Positions 8,041 through 63,070 of a stretch of DNA of 64,000 nt are shown piece after piece. This DNA comes from an uncultured Pseudomonadales bacterium. Its GTDB lineage: Bacteria > Patescibacteriota > Microgenomatia > UBA1400 > PJMF01. The number at the start of each line of letters is the position of its first letter. Within the stretch, counting starts at the first letter, position 1. The notes under the pieces were generated by a model. It was not told the origin of the DNA, ran no database searches, and saw only the letters and a program-made list of their open reading frames with translations. A program made the position numbers and the translations under genes. The stretch covers positions 57,718 to 121,717 of the forward strand of contig CAYOQI010000004.1 in the NCBI GenBank assembly GCA_964406075.1, given 5' to 3'.

Positions 8041-8817
8041 TTAATACTCAACCCGTCGAGCATACCGGAAGTAACGAACCGGAGAGTTCAAGAATTTACA
8101 GGTGTACAAAATAATATCGGCATCATAATCAGTGATTTCTTCACCTTCTTCACCAGCATAAATCTCATACTCATATCGACGTTTATCCCAGATCACTTCA
8201 AACGTATCCCCAACTTCTAATTTATTGAGGTTAAAAAAGGAATTTTGTCGACGATAGGCGTCTGTCCACTTGAGATATCCAAAGCGGTGAGCCAATAAAA
8301 TCATCGGACCAAGACTCTCTGGAGTAGCAAACTCTGTTTCTCGCCATACACCATGGCGCAAAGAATCTTCTGGCTCCACCGATTCTCCAATTTCAGTACG
8401 AACTCCAATCTTAGGAATGACTAACCAATTTCCATCTGGCAAATTTTCATCTCGAGGAGGGAGAACGATTTCAGAGTACAAAGTTCCCTCAGAATACAGT
8501 CCTCCCAGAGGTGATTCAGGTGTCTTGGCTTCAATTTGGACTCGTTCAACGGGTACAAATTTATAAAATGTATCTGGAAATAAGAATGCTGAAGCTACAA
8601 CGATTGACCCAAACAGTCCAATGGAAGAAATCAAGGAAATCAGATGTTTCCCAATTTTTCTTGGCTGTTTCTTAGGAAGAATAGTAGTTTGCACAGCAGA
8701 CCACATGAGCCACTCTTGGACTCTCTGTTCGCGTTGTCTGGCAAAATTGATCGTTGTATATAGCATATTAACTTGATTATTATAGGATACTTTTCCCGTT
8801 TTGTCCAGATACAACAC
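8041..8817 (-). CDS. sortase-family transpeptidase (membrane anchored)
   Basis: An N-terminal TM segment (LISLISSIGLFGSIVVASAFLF) is followed by the catalytic triad context LLAHRFG (His), IILYTCKF (TLxTC-like Cys) and a downstream Arg (RYFRYARR). The exact start is uncertain because there are several in-frame Met codons. Confidence 0.7.
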   Translation of the reverse strand: MLYLDKTGKVSYNNQVNMLYTTINFARQREQRVQEWLMWSAVQTTILPKKQPRKIGKHLISLISSIGLFGSIVVASAFLFPDTFYKFVPVERVQIEAKTPESPLGGLYSEGTLYSEIVLPPRDENLPDGNWLVIPKIGVRTEIGESVEPEDSLRHGVWRETEFATPESLGPMILLAHRFGYLKWTDAYRRQNSFFNLNKLEVGDTFEVIWDKRRYEYEIYAGEEGEEITDYDADIILYTCKFLNSPVRYFRYARRVEY

Positions 8818-13104: not shown

Positions 13105-13634
13105 TATTCTTCCCCTTTCTTAATCACATACATTTCATACTCAACCTCTTGGGGAATACCATTAATATTCCAGCTCACTCGTGTAATAAGTCTTAAAGTA
13201 TCGGGATCATCGATAGCATCACTGACACTTTCATCCACAACTTGAAACGTAACCGGATCTCGAACAATGTTTTGAACAAATATTTCGCGAGTGAATTTAT
13301 CTTCCAACACCTCTGTTCCATTCAGTAACTGTAAAAATGGTGAATACTCAGGGTGATATGGCTCATCAGCATCAAAACTGGTACTAAACAACTCCCAATC
13401 GGTGGTAGAACTTGCCAAGTTGTACGCAATTTCCATCCCCTCTTGAGCATGTAAACCTGCTTCTACTCTTTCCCAAGAAGTACGTTGGGAAGAAAATACA
13501 TGTTGAAAAGAGATTATGAAAAAAACAATTAAAGAGATAAAAATCCCCATAGAAATGACAGCTTCCAGCAAGAGATATCCTTGCTCAGAGTGACGCTTAG
13601 AGTGGTTGTGGTACGGTTGTGTCAAGAACGCCAT
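13104..13634 (-). CDS. prepilin-type pseudopilin
   Basis: The N-terminus SEQG|YLLLEAVISMGIFISLIVFFII has Gly followed by Glu at +5. It overlaps the neighbouring pilin genes at both ends. Confidence 0.7.
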   Translation of the reverse strand: MAFLTQPYHNHSKRHSEQGYLLLEAVISMGIFISLIVFFIISFQHVFSSQRTSWERVEAGLHAQEGMEIAYNLASSTTDWELFSTSFDADEPYHPEYSPFLQLLNGTEVLEDKFTREIFVQNIVRDPVTFQVVDESVSDAIDDPDTLRLITRVSWNINGIPQEVEYEMYVIKKGEE

Positions 13635-14076
13635 AAGAATTTATACGAATCTGAGTGGTAAAACGGTTTGATTGTAGTTCAAGAGTTAAATCACTTCCCG
13701 GTGGATTTGTTTCTTGCGGGGACAATTCTAGTTGCCCCGTCAATTTCCGAAAAAAAACAAGGTCTGCGGTTGAATTTAATTGAATACCATATTGATAAGA
13801 AATTTGTTTATTTTCAGGCAAAAGCAAGTAGAATCCTGGAGAAACGAATGAGATACCATAACTCTCCCCGTTTTGAGCCACACGTGATTTTTGTTGTGCT
13901 TGCTTGAGCTCAGCCACGATTTTGTCGCGTTCCTTGGTCAATCGTTGGCGCTCTAAAGTTCCAAGTAAATATGGGGTGCTCGCACCAACCACCAACGCAA
14001 TAATTGTCATCACCACAATCAACTCCACTAAAGTGAAACCAGATGAATTCTGATGTTGGGCAGAACGAAAAAACAT
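13597..14076 (-). CDS. prepilin-type pseudopilin
   Basis: The N-terminus is NSSG|FTLVELIVVMTIIALVV, a canonical prepilin cleavage and methylation motif. Confidence 0.8.
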   Translation of the reverse strand: MFFRSAQHQNSSGFTLVELIVVMTIIALVVGASTPYLLGTLERQRLTKERDKIVAELKQAQQKSRVAQNGESYGISFVSPGFYLLLPENKQISYQYGIQLNSTADLVFFRKLTGQLELSPQETNPPGSDLTLELQSNRFTTQIRINSYGVLDTTVPQPL

Positions 14077-14122
14077 GTACGTATTTAGTGTACATGAGGA
14101 CTGTGAGGAAGAAAAGAAAGTG

Positions 14123-14189
14123 TGCCCCCACCGGGAACCTGCCTGCCGGCAGGCAGGTCGAAATTTGGATTTAGGGTTTAGGAAATTAG
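14123..14189 (-). other. tRNA-Arg 3'-half-like segment interrupted by a 20-nt palindromic insert
   Basis: The minus strand reads CTAATTTCCTAAACCCTAAATCCAAATTTCGAC[CTGCCTGCCGGCAGGCAGGT]TCCCGGTGGGGGCA. Outside the bracket it aligns with the 3' 44 nt of the adjacent tRNA-Arg (TTTCCTAAACC, TAAATCCA, TTCGAC and TCCCGGT are all shared). Confidence 0.6.
14133..14162 (-). repeat. conserved 30-nt GC-rich palindromic element, copy 1
   Basis: The plus strand reads GGGAACCTGCCTGCCGGCAGGCAGGTCGAA, a 9-bp stem ACCTGCCTG / CAGGCAGGT with a 4-nt loop. It is 29/30 identical to 62367..62396. Confidence 0.85.
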
Positions 14190-14261
14190 TGCCGATACCG
14201 GGAGTCGAACCTGGATTTAAGGTTTAGGAAACCTCCGTTCTATCCATTGAACTATATCGGC
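14190..14261 (-). tRNA. tRNA-Arg (anticodon CCT)
   Basis: Hand-folded cloverleaf: GCCGATA TA GTTC-AATGGAT-A-GAAC G GAGGT TTCCTAA ACCTT ... TTCGACT ... TATCGGC A. The acceptor strands are complementary. There is one A-C mismatch in the T stem and no encoded CCA. Confidence 0.8.
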
Positions 14262-14343
14262 TATGAGTATAAAAAATTGTCATCCATAGGCTGCCTGCCC
14301 GCCTTTGGAGGGATCGCCTTTGGCGGAAACTATGGGAGCAGTG
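14262..14343 (-). other. GC-rich structured spacer between tRNA-Pro and tRNA-Arg that begins with a tRNA-5'-end-like GCTCCCATAG
   Basis: The minus strand reads CACT GCTCCCA TAG TTTCCGCCAAAGGCGATCCCTCCAAAGGCGGGCAGGCAGCCTATGG ATGACAATTTTTTATACTCATA. It contains an outer stem CCATAG/CTATGG, the direct repeat CC(G/T)CCAAAGGCG twice, and a GGCAGGCAG motif shared with the palindromic element. Confidence 0.4.
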
Positions 14344-14415
14344 TCGGGGTGGAGGGAATTGAACCCTCTGCCTCTCGGTCCCGAACCGAGCGCTCTACCG
14401 ATGAGCCACACCCCG
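14344..14415 (-). tRNA. tRNA-Pro (anticodon CGG)
   Basis: Hand-folded: CGGGGTG TG GCTC-ATCGGTA-GAGC G CTCGG TTCGGGA CCGAG AGGCA GAGGG TTCAATT CCCTC CACCCCG A. All stems are perfectly paired. Length is 72 nt with no encoded CCA. Confidence 0.9.
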
Positions 14416-14482
14416 TATAAAAACTCTTACCAATTTCTCCACACAGGTGAAGATAATCCTTAGAATTTTACCACCCTGATCC

Positions 14483-14519
14483 AAAAACGGACGGATGAGT
14501 TCCGCCCGTTTCTTTTTTA
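14483..14519 (-). terminator. rho-independent (bidirectional-looking) terminator downstream of ndk
   Basis: A 10-bp stem AAACGGACGG / CCGCCCGTTT (one mismatch) with loop ATGAGTT. It is flanked by an A5 run on the plus strand (T5 on the minus strand) and by TCTTTTTT on the other side. It lies 13 nt after the ndk stop. Confidence 0.65.
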
Positions 14520-14531
14520 TTTAAAAAAAAG

Positions 14532-14999
14532 TTACTTCTTCATTTCGTAATCAGCGTAAATAACGCACTCCATAGCAGATGAGTAATCAAATAATTCATC
14601 TTTTCCGAAAACGATTTTAATTTCTCGCTCTGCATCTTCAGCAATGGCTGAAGCATGAATAAGATTGAATTGTTGACTCATTCCAAAATCACCTCGAATA
14701 GAACCAGCCTCTGCTTCACGTCCTAACGTCGTTCCAACCAATTTGCGAACAACTGGAACCGCATCAATACCTTGCCATGCCATTGCGACAATTGGCATCT
14801 GCCCCATGAATGATTTTAAATCGCCAAAGAAACTCTTATCTTTGTGCTCGGCATACCAATCAGACAACATCTCATCAGTCATGAGCACCATCTTAATTCC
14901 GACTAACTTGAGGCCTTTTCGTTCAAATCGAGAAATGATCTCTCCGATCAAACCTCGTTGCAAACCATCTGGTTTGACTAATACTGCTGTGCGTTGCAT
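14532..14999 (-). CDS. ndk: nucleoside diphosphate kinase
   Basis: The protein begins MQRTAVLVKPDGLQRGLIGEIISRFERKGLKLVG and contains RGDFG and NLIHAS (active-site His context). The 155-aa length is typical. Confidence 0.9.
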   Translation of the reverse strand: MQRTAVLVKPDGLQRGLIGEIISRFERKGLKLVGIKMVLMTDEMLSDWYAEHKDKSFFGDLKSFMGQMPIVAMAWQGIDAVPVVRKLVGTTLGREAEAGSIRGDFGMSQQFNLIHASAIAEDAEREIKIVFGKDELFDYSSAMECVIYADYEMKK

Positions 15000-62353: not shown

Positions 62354-62405
62354 TGGTGGACCGTGGGGGAACCTGCCTGCCGTCAGGCAGGTCGAACTCT
62401 CACTG
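62354..62405 (-). other. tRNA 3'-half-like segment (T-arm region with palindromic insert + acceptor strand + encoded CCA)
   Basis: The minus strand reads CAGTGAGAG TTCGAC[CTGCCTGACGGCAGGCAGGT]TCCCCC ACGGTCC A CCA. It lies directly 3' of tRNA-Ala(CGC) and directly 5' of the terminator. Confidence 0.55.
62367..62396 (-). repeat. conserved 30-nt GC-rich palindromic element, copy 2
   Basis: The plus strand reads GGGAACCTGCCTGCCGTCAGGCAGGTCGAA, which is 29/30 identical to 14133..14162. The single difference is in the loop. Confidence 0.85.
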
Positions 62406-62476
62406 TGGACTCACGGGGAATTGAACCCCGAACTATGCAATGCGAATGCATCGGTATACCGTTTACCTATGAGCCC
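62406..62476 (-). tRNA. tRNA-Ala (anticodon CGC)
   Basis: Hand-folded: GGGCTCA TA GGTA-AACGGTA-TACC G ATGCA TTCGCAT TGCAT AGTT CGGGG TTCAATT CCCCG TGAGTCC A. The G3:U70 identity pair is present. Length is 71 nt with no encoded CCA. Confidence 0.85.
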
Positions 62477-62509
62477 GAATGCTATGTACTACCACTATAC
62501 GAACGGCCC
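62477..62509 (-). other. tRNA 5'-half-like segment (acceptor strand + D-arm + 5' anticodon stem)
   Basis: The minus strand reads GGGCCGT TC GTAT-AGTGGTA-GTAC A TAGCA TTC and abuts the 5' end of tRNA-Ala(CGC). GGGCCGT is complementary to ACGGTCC in 62354..62405, with a G3:U70 pair. Confidence 0.5.
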
Positions 62510-62518
62510 TCATTTCAA

Positions 62519-62755
62519 TTAAATCAGTCGCTTATTTCTAAAAGCAAATCCTGCTCCCGTTTTTAAATACTTTTCAAATTCTATTGCGAGTTTTTCTGAA
62601 GCAAAAGCGGAGTAGAAAATTAGTTTACATGGGAGAAAGTTTTTTGTTGCCTTAACTCTTCCCGAGCTATGCTCTTTCAAACGAGTTTTCAAATCAGAAG
62701 AATAACCAGTATATATTGTGTTATTTATTAGCTGAAGAAGATATGTGTAATACAC
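62519..62755 (-). CDS. stand-alone GIY-YIG (URI domain, UPF0213/YhbQ-like) nuclease family protein
   Basis: 78 aa. YYTYLLQLINNTIYTGYSSDLKTRLKEHSSG matches the GIY-(10-11)-YIG pattern with the downstream R..H and E residues. Confidence 0.75.
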   Translation of the reverse strand: MYYTYLLQLINNTIYTGYSSDLKTRLKEHSSGRVKATKNFLPCKLIFYSAFASEKLAIEFEKYLKTGAGFAFRNKRLI

Positions 62756-62878
62756 TTGAACCTTAAAGTCCTACTTCGCTAAAGCTACGCGGGACACACT
62801 TCGCATGACTTAAAATATCTCTTACTATAAAAAGTGGCCTGCCACACGAAGCTCTGAGTGATAACGAAGAGCGAAGTG

Positions 62879-62949
62879 TGGACCCGAGGGGAATCGAACC
62901 CCTTTCTATTCCATGCCATGGAAGTATACTACCGGTGTACTACGGGCCC
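62879..62949 (-). tRNA. tRNA-Ala (anticodon GGC)
   Basis: Hand-folded: GGGCCCG TA GTAC-ACCGGTA-GTAT A CTTCC ATGGCAT GGAAT AGAA AGGGG TTCGATT CCCCT CGGGTCC A. G3:U70 is present. There is one C-U mismatch at the top of the anticodon stem and no encoded CCA. Confidence 0.75.
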
Positions 62950-63070
62950 CTAAAATAACTTTTCAACTTCTCCTCCCTGATGTATCGGGGAGAAAGCTGA
63001 GTTCTGTCATAACAGAACCAGCAGGTGGGGGTTTCAATTAAATCAATCTCAGAATTTTAACATACGCTTC

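What the first reader, a model, noticed from the sequence alone, without database searches (positions are those of the whole stretch)
14121..14343. tRNA-Arg nested inside a split tRNA-like shell (Arg locus)
Reading the minus strand, the order is:
- tRNA-Pro.
- CACT.
- GCTCCCA-TAG..., an 82-nt GC-rich structured spacer that starts like a tRNA 5' end.
- The complete tRNA-Arg(CCT).
- CT.
- A copy of the tRNA-Arg 3' 44 nt, running from the anticodon loop TTTCCTAAA to the acceptor.

That copy is interrupted after TTCGAC of the T-loop by a 20-nt palindrome. The outer 5' heptamer GCTCCCA pairs with the outer 3' heptamer TGGGGGC (six Watson-Crick pairs plus one U-G). The flanks could therefore close an acceptor-like helix around the intact tRNA. 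This is not the usual island-integration signature, because no cargo lies between the full tRNA and its partial copy.
Basis: seen in the sequence. Interest (0 to 1): 0.65.

Follow-up and report, generated by a model that had tools for sequence, protein, structure and literature searches.

The report
Resident tRNA gene split by replacement
The "shell" is the two leftover pieces of the bacterium's own tRNA-Arg gene, broken when a complete replacement tRNA-Arg gene landed inside it. The leftovers carry a 20-base palindrome that appears in the same kind of tRNA wreckage in many bacterial phyla, often beside a small GIY-YIG nuclease gene.

Summary
Reading the minus strand, a complete tRNA-Arg(CCT) (14261-14190) sits between a 5' piece (GCTCCCATAGTT, 14339-14328) and a 3' piece (14185-14123). 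Their heptamers pair.

The closest relative found with this locus (L122) has one intact tRNA-Arg(CCT) at the same position, with exactly this acceptor stem and the same downstream bases. The shell is therefore the resident gene, split. It is not a functional RNA cage:
- Positions 27-31 are missing and the T-stem is mutated.
- A 39-nt cluster of GC-rich mini-palindromes sits in the D-loop.
- A 20-nt palindrome (PAL, CCTGCCTGCCGGCAGGCAGG) sits between A58 and U59.

The same architecture recurs at tRNA-Ala(CGC) in this window, in a related CPR contig (L199), and in unrelated bacteria (L043, L109).

PAL is identical in more than 120 genomes from several phyla and in uncultured viral contigs. It recurs in loops of displaced tRNA fragments beside an intact copy, often with a small UPF0213/Slx1-like GIY-YIG gene between them.

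Best reading: a scar of a recurrent recombination process that targets tRNA genes and supplies a replacement tRNA. The mechanism is inferred. No description was found in the searchable literature.

The parts
14344..14415 (-). tRNA-Pro(CGG), intact, 4 nt upstream of the shell
   Evidence: ARAGORN; Rfam tRNA, 67.3 bits
14328..14339 (-). 5' piece of the resident tRNA-Arg(CCT): positions 1-12, GCTCCCATAGTT
   Evidence: Identical to the first 12 nt of the intact tRNA-Arg(CCT) of relative L122. Pairs with 14130-14124.
14289..14327 (-). 39-nt cluster of GC-rich mini-palindromes inserted in the D-loop of the 5' piece: TCCGCCAAAGGCGA, TCCCTCCAAAGGCGGG and a half-PAL GGCAGGCAGCC
   Evidence: Absent from the intact gene in L122. 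The same modules occur in a Planctomycetales MAG (L008, twice) and next to a PAL in a Liptonbacteria MAG (L041).
14278..14288 (-). Probable remnant of the resident D-arm: TATGGATGACA, compared with native AATGGATAGAACA
   Evidence: Reading of the sequence against L122. Inference.
14262..14277 (-). AT-rich 16-nt leader directly upstream of the inner tRNA (ATTTTTTATACTCATA); left end of the inserted segment
   Evidence: Not present in L122. No consensus promoter was called.
14190..14261 (-). Inner, complete tRNA-Arg(CCT). Its acceptor stem is GCCGATA/TATCGGC. Its core is almost identical to the resident type.
   Evidence: ARAGORN; Rfam, 66 bits; alignment to the L122 tRNA
14186..14189 (-). CTAA junction between the inner tRNA and the 3' piece
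   Evidence: Sequence
14158..14185 (-). 3' piece, first part: anticodon loop to A58 (TTTCCTAAACCCTAAATCCAAATTTCGA). Decayed, with GG to AA in the T-stem and one extra T.
   Evidence: the repeat finder D1, 95%; comparison with L122
14138..14157 (.). PAL, the 20-nt palindrome CCTGCCTGCCGGCAGGCAGG, inserted between A58 and U59 of the T-loop with no target duplication
   Evidence: Perfect inverted repeat. The empty site TTCGA|TTCC is seen in L122. The same sequence is in more than 120 genomes and 39 viral-contig stretches.
14123..14137 (-). 3' piece, second part: U59 to discriminator (TTCCCGGTGGGGGCA), followed by CACTTT as in the relative
   Evidence: Identical to the L122 tRNA-Arg 3' end plus flank. 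Logan contig L208, an independent assembly, starts exactly here.
62879..62949 (-). tRNA-Ala(GGC), behind which the GIY-YIG cassette sits
62756..62878 (-). Conserved structured leader between the tRNA 3' end and the GIY-YIG ORF
   Evidence: Alignment with four CPR loci: 28 predicted pairs, 12 with compensatory changes. No Rfam family.
62519..62755 (-). 78-aa GIY-YIG nuclease ORF of the UPF0213/Slx1-like clade
   Evidence: Pfam PF01541, E = 2.5e-14. PDB profile hits to 1zg2, 1ywl and SLX1.
62477..62509 (-). Second shell: 5' half of a resident-type tRNA-Ala(CGN), GGGCCGTTCGTATAGTGGTAGTACATAGCATTC, broken in the anticodon
   Evidence: Sequence. Pairs with 62363-62357, including G3:U70.
62406..62476 (-). 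Inner complete tRNA-Ala(CGC) with a different acceptor stem (GGGCTCA/TGAGTCC)
62354..62404 (-). Second shell, 3' piece: AGTGAGAGTTCGA, then PAL (62391-62372, CCTGCCTGACGGCAGGCAGG), then TTCCCCCACGGTCCACCA
   Evidence: PAL is at the same T-loop position as in the Arg locus.

Best explanation
The outer 'shell' is the resident tRNA-Arg(CCT) gene of this CPR/Patescibacteria lineage, now a pseudogene in two pieces. A roughly 92-nt segment was inserted into it near the anticodon stem. That segment is a 16-nt AT-rich leader, a complete allelic tRNA-Arg(CCT) with a different but self-complementary acceptor stem, and CTAA. Resident positions 27-31 were lost. The inner gene now supplies the tRNA.

The displaced pieces carry small GC-rich palindromes in their D and T loops. 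One of these is PAL, a 20-nt element found unchanged across bacterial phyla.

The acceptor-like pairing of the flanks is inherited from the resident gene and has no present function.

Inferred mechanism: a recurrent recombination process targets tRNA genes and keeps one working tRNA copy while displacing part or all of the old one. It would be either integration of incoming DNA carrying a tRNA or tRNA segment, or homing-like repair. In many genomes this process is linked to a small Slx1/UPF0213-like GIY-YIG nuclease gene. PAL-type palindromes mark the loops and helix junctions of the displaced copy.

Shown: the identity of the shell, the recurrence of the arrangement, and the associations with PAL and GIY-YIG. 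Inferred: the order of events, the enzyme responsible and the role of PAL.
For: 1. Relative L122 (Ndk 95% identical) has, between the same neighbours, one intact tRNA-Arg(CCT): GCTCCCATAGTT...TTCGATTCCCGGTGGGGGCA followed by CACTTT. This equals the outer 5' piece, the outer 3' end and its flank. It also shows the empty PAL site TTCGA|TTCC.

2. The inner tRNA differs from the resident type mainly in five compensated acceptor pairs.

3. The same nesting occurs elsewhere:
- At tRNA-Ala(CGC) in this window, with PAL at the same T-loop position and G3:U70 between the outer halves.
- In related contig L199, with a different breakpoint, different junctions, opposite orientation and no PAL.
- In a gammaproteobacterial MAG (L043) and in L109.

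4. PAL is widespread and tied to tRNA fragments:
- About 17 of 178 PAL sites have tRNA-like flanks, nearly always a partial copy beside an intact cognate tRNA.
- In the window, every PAL-type element lies in about 150 nt of displaced tRNA out of 64 kb.

5. The metagenome scan for T-loop PAL gave 22 loci. Twelve have a GIY-YIG ORF ending less than 200 nt upstream of the PAL piece. The recurrent order is intact tRNA, terminator, ORF, then a 3' piece carrying PAL. Some occur as tandem units.

6. Sets chosen without reference to PAL agree:
- 5 of 7 viral GIY-YIG loci lie next to tRNAs or tRNA fragments, and 3 of them have PAL variants in the displaced piece.
- All four independent CPR homologue loci examined sit behind a tRNA or tmRNA 3' end.

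7. In L176 and L186 the displaced 3' strand differs from the one in the working gene. In L176 the displaced strand is the better partner of the 5' strand, so the displaced copy is the older one.
Against: - The Arg locus holds no nuclease, integrase or transposase gene, so the link to GIY-YIG there is by analogy.
- No donor of the inner tRNA was found.
- The junctions show no recognisable recombination site.
- Most PAL copies (about 90%) are not in tRNA contexts, and only 6 of about 121 PAL-selected sources have a GIY-YIG ORF nearby. PAL may therefore be an independent element.
- The PAL-based samples are biased by how they were collected.
- The outer halves in L199 are undecayed. That would also fit selection on them if L199 and the window share one old splitting event.
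- I could not obtain the orthologous Ala locus.
Confidence: 0.7

Rival explanations
1. Functional nested or split tRNA. The transcript folds so that the outer halves close an acceptor-like helix around the inner tRNA. This would act as a processing platform, or RNase P/Z release of the inner tRNA would leave two halves that act together.
For: - The outer helix forms in the minimum-free-energy fold.
- The outer halves of L199 are complete and undecayed, and differ from the window by a compensated pair.
- The arrangement recurs.
Against: - The window's outer tRNA lacks positions 27-31, has a broken T-stem and has palindromes in two loops.
- Relative L122 has the gene intact and un-nested.
- Breakpoints differ between loci (26/31, inside the anticodon, D-loop), so no common RNA architecture exists.
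- No Rfam family matches.
Confidence: 0.05
2. An ordinary integrase-mediated island or prophage integration into tRNA-Arg, followed by deletion of the cargo. This would leave attL and attR side by side.
For: [quoted passage not shown]
- The 3' partial copy starts in the anticodon loop, a known crossover sublocation (own knowledge of Williams 2002).
- GIY-YIG loci in IMG/VR lie near contig ends next to tRNA pieces.
Against: - There is no integrase or cargo remnant.
- A 5' piece is also present upstream.
- Both acceptor strands of the working gene are foreign, whereas an att identity block should run unchanged to the 3' end.
- The same palindrome sits in the displaced piece at two different tRNAs.
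Confidence: 0.12
3. Purely local events: tandem duplications of the resident tRNA gene, followed by decay of the outer copies. PAL and the other palindromes would be unrelated selfish hairpins surviving wherever insertion is harmless.
For: - In L043, and in the Bacteroidota tRNA-Leu loci, displaced and intact copies have identical acceptor strands.
- The inner core is nearly identical to the resident core.
- Most PAL copies are outside tRNA contexts.
Against: - Five compensated acceptor-pair differences between the inner and outer tRNA-Arg cannot arise quickly by point mutation. The same holds for Ala, L109, L176 and L186.
- All PAL-type elements of the window lie in 0.2% of its sequence. That is far too concentrated for neutral landing.
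Confidence: 0.1
4. Assembly artefact: a metagenome assembler concatenated two strain alleles of tRNA-Arg, with palindromes as chimera joints.
For: - The window comes from a MAG contig.
- An independent Logan assembly breaks exactly at PAL.
Against: - The outer pieces are decayed and incomplete rather than a second allele.
- The same logic is seen in contigs from other assemblers and technologies, including isolate and long-read genomes.
Confidence: 0.02

Closest known systems
Partial tRNA-gene duplications (attL/attR) made by integrative elements, prophages and ICEs
   Same: A tRNA gene is the target. One working copy is preserved while a partial copy is displaced. Repeated events give tandem fragments (PMC9897764; Williams 2002 and Reiter 1989 as cited there).
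   Different: - No integrase and no cargo.
- Both a 5' and a 3' piece flank a wholly replaced gene.
- The acceptor strands of the full and partial copies differ.
- The displaced pieces carry a conserved palindrome.
- Where a gene is present, it is a roughly 80-95-aa GIY-YIG nuclease only.
Free-standing GIY-YIG homing endonuclease genes (for example phage T4 Seg proteins; SegB in the tRNA cluster)
   Same: A small GIY-YIG ORF sits next to conserved (tRNA) genes and shows presence/absence variation. SegB has been linked to segmental amplification at a tRNA locus (PMC2988022; PMC13096335, abstract).
   Different: - The proteins here fall in the UPF0213/Slx1-like clade and lack a DNA-binding domain.
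- They are chromosomal, in CPR, Bacteroidota and other phyla.
- They are associated with partial tRNA duplications and PAL.
- No cleavage activity is known.
Small palindromic repeats: REP/BIME, Rickettsia palindromic elements, MITEs, yeast mitochondrial GC clusters
   Same: A short GC-rich hairpin-forming unit in many copies, found at positions in RNA genes that tolerate an extra hairpin, in an AT-richer genome (own knowledge).
   Different: - PAL is only 20 nt and is identical across phyla, whereas REPs are lineage-specific.
- It makes no target duplication at tRNA sites.
- It is concentrated in loops of displaced tRNA fragments.
- No RAYT or TnpA partner has been identified.
Archaeal split, permuted and multi-intron tRNA genes
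   Same: tRNA sequence is interrupted at D-loop, anticodon-loop or T-loop positions (own knowledge).
   Different: - The organism is bacterial.
- The pieces do not add up to a full tRNA.
- The interrupting sequence is itself a complete cognate tRNA.
- A relative has the uninterrupted gene.
'Fractured genes' (a gene split by a free-standing homing endonuclease gene; PMC2677866)
   Same: A host gene is broken in two by selfish DNA that encodes a nuclease.
   Different: In fractured genes, function is restored by split inteins. Here a separate complete tRNA copy replaces the broken one.

Membership tests
Integrase-type island/prophage att scar at a tRNA gene | Identity block shared by the full and partial copy, running from the crossover to the 3' end of the tRNA | tested here: not met
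   The repeat covers only positions 32-58 (95%). The acceptor 3' strands differ: TATCGGC against TGGGGGC.
Integrase-type island/prophage att scar at a tRNA gene | Recombinase gene and cargo between the full and partial copy | tested here: not met
   Only 4 nt separate them. There is no ORF between ndk and the pilin-like gene other than the tRNAs.
Integrase-type island/prophage att scar at a tRNA gene | A partial copy on one side only | tested here: not met
   A 5' piece (14339-14328) and a 3' piece (14185-14123) flank the gene.
Split / intron-containing tRNA (functional) | The pieces together contain every tRNA position and intact stems | tested here: not met
   Positions 27-31 are absent and the T-stem 5' strand is mutated.
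Split / intron-containing tRNA (functional) | The interrupted state is conserved in relatives | tested here: not met
   L122 has the intact gene. L199 is nested, but at another breakpoint and in the other orientation.
Split / intron-containing tRNA (functional) | A splicing motif (bulge-helix-bulge) and a splicing endonuclease | not tested
   The genome beyond the window is not available. The lineage is bacterial.
Group I intron in a bacterial tRNA | Group I ribozyme core in the anticodon loop | tested here: not met
   Permissive Rfam scan of 13600-14900 finds only the two tRNAs.
Free-standing GIY-YIG homing-endonuclease cassette | An ORF with the GIY-YIG catalytic domain inside the rearranged locus | tested here: not met
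   None at the Arg locus. Present at the Ala locus, 62755-62519.
Free-standing GIY-YIG homing-endonuclease cassette | Consistent placement next to a conserved target gene in many genomes | tested here: met
   Placed behind tRNA/tmRNA 3' ends or between an intact and a displaced tRNA copy.
Free-standing GIY-YIG homing-endonuclease cassette | Site-specific cleavage of the allele that lacks the cassette | not testable with these tools
   Needs biochemistry.
REP / RPE / MITE-like palindromic repeats (for PAL) | A short palindromic unit present in many copies | tested here: met
REP / RPE / MITE-like palindromic repeats (for PAL) | A sequence specific to a species or genus, with a cognate transposase (RAYT or IS200/IS605 TnpA) | tested here: not met
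   An identical 20-22-mer occurs in Bacteroidota, Patescibacteria, Planctomycetota, Gammaproteobacteria and other groups. No transposase was looked for beyond the loci.
REP / RPE / MITE-like palindromic repeats (for PAL) | Target-site duplication | tested here: inconclusive
   None at tRNA sites. Direct repeats of at least 6 nt flank 17 of 128 other sites against 0.8 expected, mostly inside 7-8-nt tandem repeats.

The most novel reading that the evidence does not exclude
PAL-type mini-palindromes and the small Slx1/UPF0213-like GIY-YIG genes form a previously undescribed, cross-phylum class of selfish element that targets tRNA and tmRNA genes. It would break or displace the resident gene at loops and helix junctions, install a working copy (sometimes a foreign allele) so that the host survives, and leave PAL as the cis-acting site or footprint of a structure-specific nuclease. 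The nested tRNA-in-tRNA loci of this window would be its ORF-less scars.
Probability: 0.35. Interest if true: 0.8.

Novelty: new variant of a known kind. Interest (0 to 1): 0.62.

Why it matters
- **Annotation.** These loci produce pseudo-tRNA calls, odd long tRNAs (ARAGORN calls a 92-nt tRNA-Met that contains PAL) and assembly breaks.
- **tRNA evolution.** Essential single-copy tRNA genes in reduced CPR genomes can be replaced in place by foreign alleles, with whole acceptor stems swapped. This is a route for horizontal tRNA replacement.
- **Mobile DNA.** A 20-nt palindrome kept identical across phyla and concentrated in displaced tRNA fragments, together with a minimal nuclease gene docked behind tRNA/tmRNA genes, points to a simple, widespread and apparently undescribed system. 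It could be tested in culturable Flavobacteriia.

Tried and rejected
- **Rfam.** Scans of both loci matched no family other than the tRNAs, so a group I intron, tmRNA or known sRNA is rejected.
- **Literature.** Exact-sequence searches for PAL gave no papers. Keyword searches linking GIY-YIG, tRNA and palindromes returned only mitochondrial, phage or Tn7 work.
- **Donor of the inner tRNA-Arg.** No exact match in viral contigs or in 187 fetched loci.
- **Cultured phages and plasmids.** No PAL match in the T-loop context. BLAST's low-complexity filter may contribute to this negative result.
- **An obligatory A|T insertion rule for PAL.** Suggested by the first scan, whose pattern forced those flanks. 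Rejected with the unbiased 20-mer scan, where only 7 of 48 sites were A|T.
- **Deleting PAL in silico to regenerate tRNAs.** Only L011 gave a tRNA call, because the PAL-bearing copies are truncated.
- **Missing genes.** The three genes lying between tRNA-Pro and tRNA-Arg in L122 are not elsewhere in the window.
- **Assembly chimera.** Considered and rejected (see rival explanations).
Full report
**1. What is in the sequence**

Reading the minus strand, the order is:
- tRNA-Pro(CGG), 14415-14344.
- CACT.
- GCTCCCATAGTT, 14339-14328.
- A GC-rich stretch, then an AT-rich stretch.
- A complete tRNA-Arg(CCT), 14261-14190 (Rfam 66 bits).
- CTAA.
- TTTCCTAAACCCTAAATCCAAATTTCGA, 14185-14158.
- The perfect palindrome CCTGCCTGCCGGCAGGCAGG, 14157-14138. 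I call it PAL.
- TTCCCGGTGGGGGCA, 14137-14123.

The repeat finder confirms the 20-nt repeat at 95% identity and the 11+11 palindrome. GCTCCCA pairs with TGGGGGC, and the predicted fold closes that helix (z = -2.4).

**2. A second copy of the same design in the window**

The motif CTGCCTGCC occurs four times in the window against 0.21 expected. All four are at two places. The second place is tRNA-Ala(CGC), 62476-62406.
- Upstream lies GGGCCGTTCGTATAGTGGTAGTACATAGCATTC, a clean tRNA-Ala 5' half broken in the anticodon.
- Downstream lies AGTGAGAGTTCGA, then PAL, then TTCCCCCACGGTCCACCA.
- The outer heptamers GGGCCGT and ACGGTCC pair and include the G3:U70 alanine identity pair.
- PAL sits at exactly the same T-loop position as in the Arg locus.
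- A 78-aa GIY-YIG ORF lies directly upstream (62755-62519; Pfam E = 2.5e-14).

A scan for GC-rich perfect palindromes finds no other PAL-type element in the 64 kb, which is 41% GC.

**3. What the shell is**

The Ndk protein next to the locus places the organism in Patescibacteria/CPR. The closest relative with this locus is L121/L122 (Ndk 95% identical). At the corresponding position, upstream of the pilin-like genes, it has a single intact tRNA-Arg(CCT): GCTCCCATAGTTCAATGGATAGAACAGAGGTTTCCTAAACCTTTAATCCAGGTTCGATTCCCGGTGGGGGCA, followed by CACTTT.

That sequence equals the window's outer 5' piece, its outer 3' end and the downstream flank. The shell is therefore the resident gene, and its pairing is an ordinary acceptor stem. 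Compared with the intact gene, the window shows these changes:
- (a) 39 nt of GC-rich hairpins after ATAGTT in the D-loop.
- (b) A probable D-arm remnant, TATGGATGACA.
- (c) A roughly 92-nt insertion: leader, inner tRNA and CTAA.
- (d) Loss of positions 27-31.
- (e) Point decay in the T-stem.
- (f) PAL inserted between A58 and U59 with no target duplication.

The inner tRNA has nearly the same core as the resident type. Its acceptor stem differs at five compensated positions, GCCGATA/TATCGGC. It is another allele, not a fresh duplicate.

An independent Logan assembly carrying the identical pilin protein starts exactly after PAL. That fits a repeat or palindrome breaking the assembly graph.

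**4. The arrangement recurs**

- **L199.** This ENA contig has a pilin protein 61% identical to the window's. After tRNA-Pro, on the opposite strand, it carries the 5' half GCTCCTATAGTTCAATTGGATAGAACAGAGGTTT, then 21 nt, then a complete tRNA-Arg(CCT) with acceptor GCTGACA/TGTCGGC, then 18 nt, then the 3' half CTAAACCTCTAATCCAGGTTCGATTCCTGGTAGGGGCA. The break is inside the anticodon, the halves are undecayed, and there is no PAL.
- **L043** (gammaproteobacterial MAG). An intact tRNA-Leu(CAA) lies between a 5' half with PAL in the D-loop and a 3' piece with PAL in the T-loop.
- **L109.** A complete tRNA-Arg(TCG) with a different acceptor stem, bounded by 14-nt inverted repeats, lies inside a resident tRNA-Arg whose 5' piece carries PAL.

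Breakpoints, junctions and orientation differ between the window and L199, and L122 is un-nested. I therefore read these as separate events at a hot spot. One old event cannot be excluded.

**5. PAL is a cross-phylum element tied to displaced tRNA pieces**

The hits are in Bacteroidota, many CPR groups, Planctomycetota, Gammaproteobacteria, Bdellovibrionales, Ignavibacteria and Dehalococcoidia, and they include isolates.
- The 20-mer occurs in 39 stretches of uncultured viral contigs. It was not found in cultured phages or plasmids.
- Flanks are unrelated between sites.
- About 17 of 178 sites have tRNA-like flanks. Almost all of these are partial copies beside an intact cognate tRNA.
- Within tRNA sequence, PAL sits in loops or at helix junctions: 7/8, 9/10, the D-loop, 38/39, the variable loop, 58/59, 65/66 and 72/73. 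L011, inside the D-stem, is the one exception. No PAL was seen in a working tRNA adjacent to a displaced copy.
- Elsewhere, PAL is flanked by direct repeats of at least 6 nt at 17 of 128 sites (0.8 expected), mostly inside 7-8-nt tandem repeats. It extends an existing hairpin by at least 5 bp at 6 of 128 sites (0.4 expected).
- Variants exist, such as CCTGTCTGCTGACAGGGAGG and CCTGCCTACCGGTAGGCAGG.
- The 39-nt GC cluster in the Arg 5' piece is built from other mini-palindromes. These also occur in a Planctomycetales MAG and next to a PAL in a Liptonbacteria MAG.

**6. Link to a small GIY-YIG nuclease gene**

- Among PAL-selected genome loci, 6 sources have a GIY-YIG ORF within 250 nt of PAL.
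- A metagenome scan for PAL in the T-loop context gave 22 distinct loci. Twelve have such an ORF ending less than 200 nt upstream of the PAL piece. The usual order is intact tRNA (mostly Leu-CAA), terminator, ORF, a 3' tRNA piece of variable length ending in TTCGA, PAL, TTCC through the acceptor strand, and a copy of the terminator. Units can be tandem, and one locus has five ORF-less 108-nt units.
- The mirror form is a 5' piece with PAL in the D-loop, then the ORF, then the intact tRNA. It occurs in L040, L119, L159 and L193.
- ORF-less short forms like the window's exist at tRNA-Arg(CCT) in L174 and L176. In L176 and L186 the displaced 3' strand differs from the one in the working gene. In L176 the displaced strand is the better partner of the 5' strand.
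- Samples chosen by protein similarity alone agree. Of 7 viral-contig loci, 5 are next to tRNAs or tRNA pieces. All four independent CPR homologue loci sit 120-270 nt behind a tRNA-Val, a tRNA-Ala or a tmRNA gene.
- The protein family's nearest solved relatives are UPF0213 proteins (1zg2, 1ywl) and the structure-specific endonuclease SLX1.

**7. How it most likely works**

Shown:
- The resident tRNA-Arg gene was split.
- A complete allelic tRNA now does its job.
- The remnants carry PAL-type palindromes.
- The same outcome arises repeatedly in distant bacteria, often with a GIY-YIG gene in the rearranged unit.

Inferred:
- Incoming DNA carrying a tRNA, or a terminal tRNA segment, recombines with the resident gene through the short conserved tRNA sequence. 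This would be Campbell-type or homing-like repair, possibly stimulated by nuclease cleavage.
- One functional copy results, together with displaced 5' and/or 3' pieces.
- Repeated rounds give tandem or nested remnants, and deletion removes ORFs.

PAL could be any of three things:
- The cis site or footprint of a structure-specific nuclease.
- A homology breaker that confines crossovers to the tRNA termini.
- An independent hairpin parasite that prefers loop-like DNA.

The data do not decide between these. L199 shows that nesting can exist without PAL, so PAL is not required for the split.

**8. Rivals**

- **Functional split tRNA.** The missing and mutated positions, and the un-nested relative, argue against it.
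- **Classical integrase scar.** There is no cargo or recombinase, both sides carry fragments, and the acceptor strands do not match.
- **Purely local duplication with neutral hairpin landing.** This fails on the foreign acceptor stems, and on the concentration of every PAL-type element of the window in 0.2% of its length.
- **Assembly artefact.** This is unlikely given the decay pattern, and given recurrence across assemblers and isolate genomes.

**9. Comparison with known systems, and novelty**

The nearest known things are:
- tRNA att duplications by integrative elements (PMC9897764).
- Free-standing GIY-YIG homing endonucleases near tRNA genes in T4-like phages (PMC2988022, PMC13096335).
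- Palindromic repeats such as REP, RPE and mitochondrial GC clusters (own knowledge).

None of these combines a nested replacement tRNA, a palindrome identical across phyla in tRNA loops, and a minimal Slx1-like nuclease gene. Full-text searches found no description. The library is incomplete, so prior description cannot be excluded.

I rate the locus itself as a pseudogene scar of moderate interest. The process behind it I rate as a new variant of known tRNA-targeting mobile DNA that deserves follow-up.

Noticed in passing
window 62354-62509 (minus strand): A second nested locus. A resident-type tRNA-Ala(CGN) is split in the anticodon around a complete tRNA-Ala(CGC). PAL (centre base A) is at the same T-loop position, and the outer 3' piece encodes CCA and is followed by a strong terminator (62351-62323).
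   Followed up: partly
window 62756-62878 (minus strand); L200, L205, L206, L207: A conserved structured leader starts right after the discriminator of a tRNA or tmRNA and runs to the GIY-YIG start codon: CACTTCGCTC, a hairpin, GAGCTnCGCGTGGCAAGCCAC ... GAAGTGTGTGGC ... GCGAAGTGCCAC. RNAalifold on 5 sequences gives 28 pairs, 12 with compensatory changes. No Rfam family matches. It could be a new RNA motif, a ribozyme or an attenuator.
   Followed up: partly
window 62513-62541 and 63032-63060: A 29-nt direct repeat (79% identity, 519 nt apart) brackets the unit of about 80 nt plus tRNA-Ala(GGC), leader and GIY-YIG ORF. These are possibly the ends of an inserted or duplicated cassette.
   Followed up: no
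L001-L120, L126-L164: PAL is often embedded in short 7-8-nt tandem repeats, such as (TCAACAAA)n, (TCAGCAAA)n and (GGATTGC)n, or flanked by 7-14-nt direct repeats. Some contigs hold 3-6 copies. The 22-mer ACCTGC...GCAGGT contains two inverted BspMI-type sites and a central GCCGGC (own knowledge of restriction sites).
   Followed up: partly
L152 2239-2330; L127 ~8580-8660 (viral contigs): An initiator-like tRNA-Met(CAT) carries PAL in the variable loop. ARAGORN calls it a 92-nt tRNA. In the related contig L127 the same gene has lost part of the T-arm. It is unclear whether the PAL-bearing tRNA is functional.
   Followed up: no
L194 (=L159) ~770-1100: After the GIY-YIG ORF, the second copy of the tRNA is interrupted at the anticodon loop. 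An ORF with an HNH-like motif (CERCGYNRC...FHH) follows. This is possibly a group I intron in the working tRNA copy.
   Followed up: no
L195 41-78 versus L199 ~440: A 38-nt GC-rich hairpin (CTGCCCGCAATGCTTCCAGCATAGCTGATGCAGGCGGG) is present in L195 and absent in L199 upstream of the pilin-like gene. Such mini-palindromes therefore move within this CPR lineage.
   Followed up: no
L121/L122 versus window 14340-14343: In the relative, three genes (a hydrolase, an inositol-phosphatase-like gene and a 286-aa ORF) lie between tRNA-Pro and tRNA-Arg. In the window the two tRNAs are 4 nt apart and the genes are absent from the 64 kb. The deletion or insertion endpoint lies exactly at the tRNA-Arg 5' end.
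   Followed up: partly
L169/L187; L116; L192: Displaced tRNA-Leu copies carry two or three PALs or PAL variants at once (D-loop, anticodon-loop edge, T-loop, acceptor end). Several GIY-YIG reading frames run on into the PAL-bearing tRNA piece (...FDLPAGRQVPS).
   Followed up: partly
L124 4470-4900: The region downstream of ndk in another relative is filled with GC-rich hairpin repeats of the 'GTCATCC...' type and CCCGCCC/GGGCGGG hairpins. These are a further family of small palindromic repeats in these genomes.
   Followed up: no
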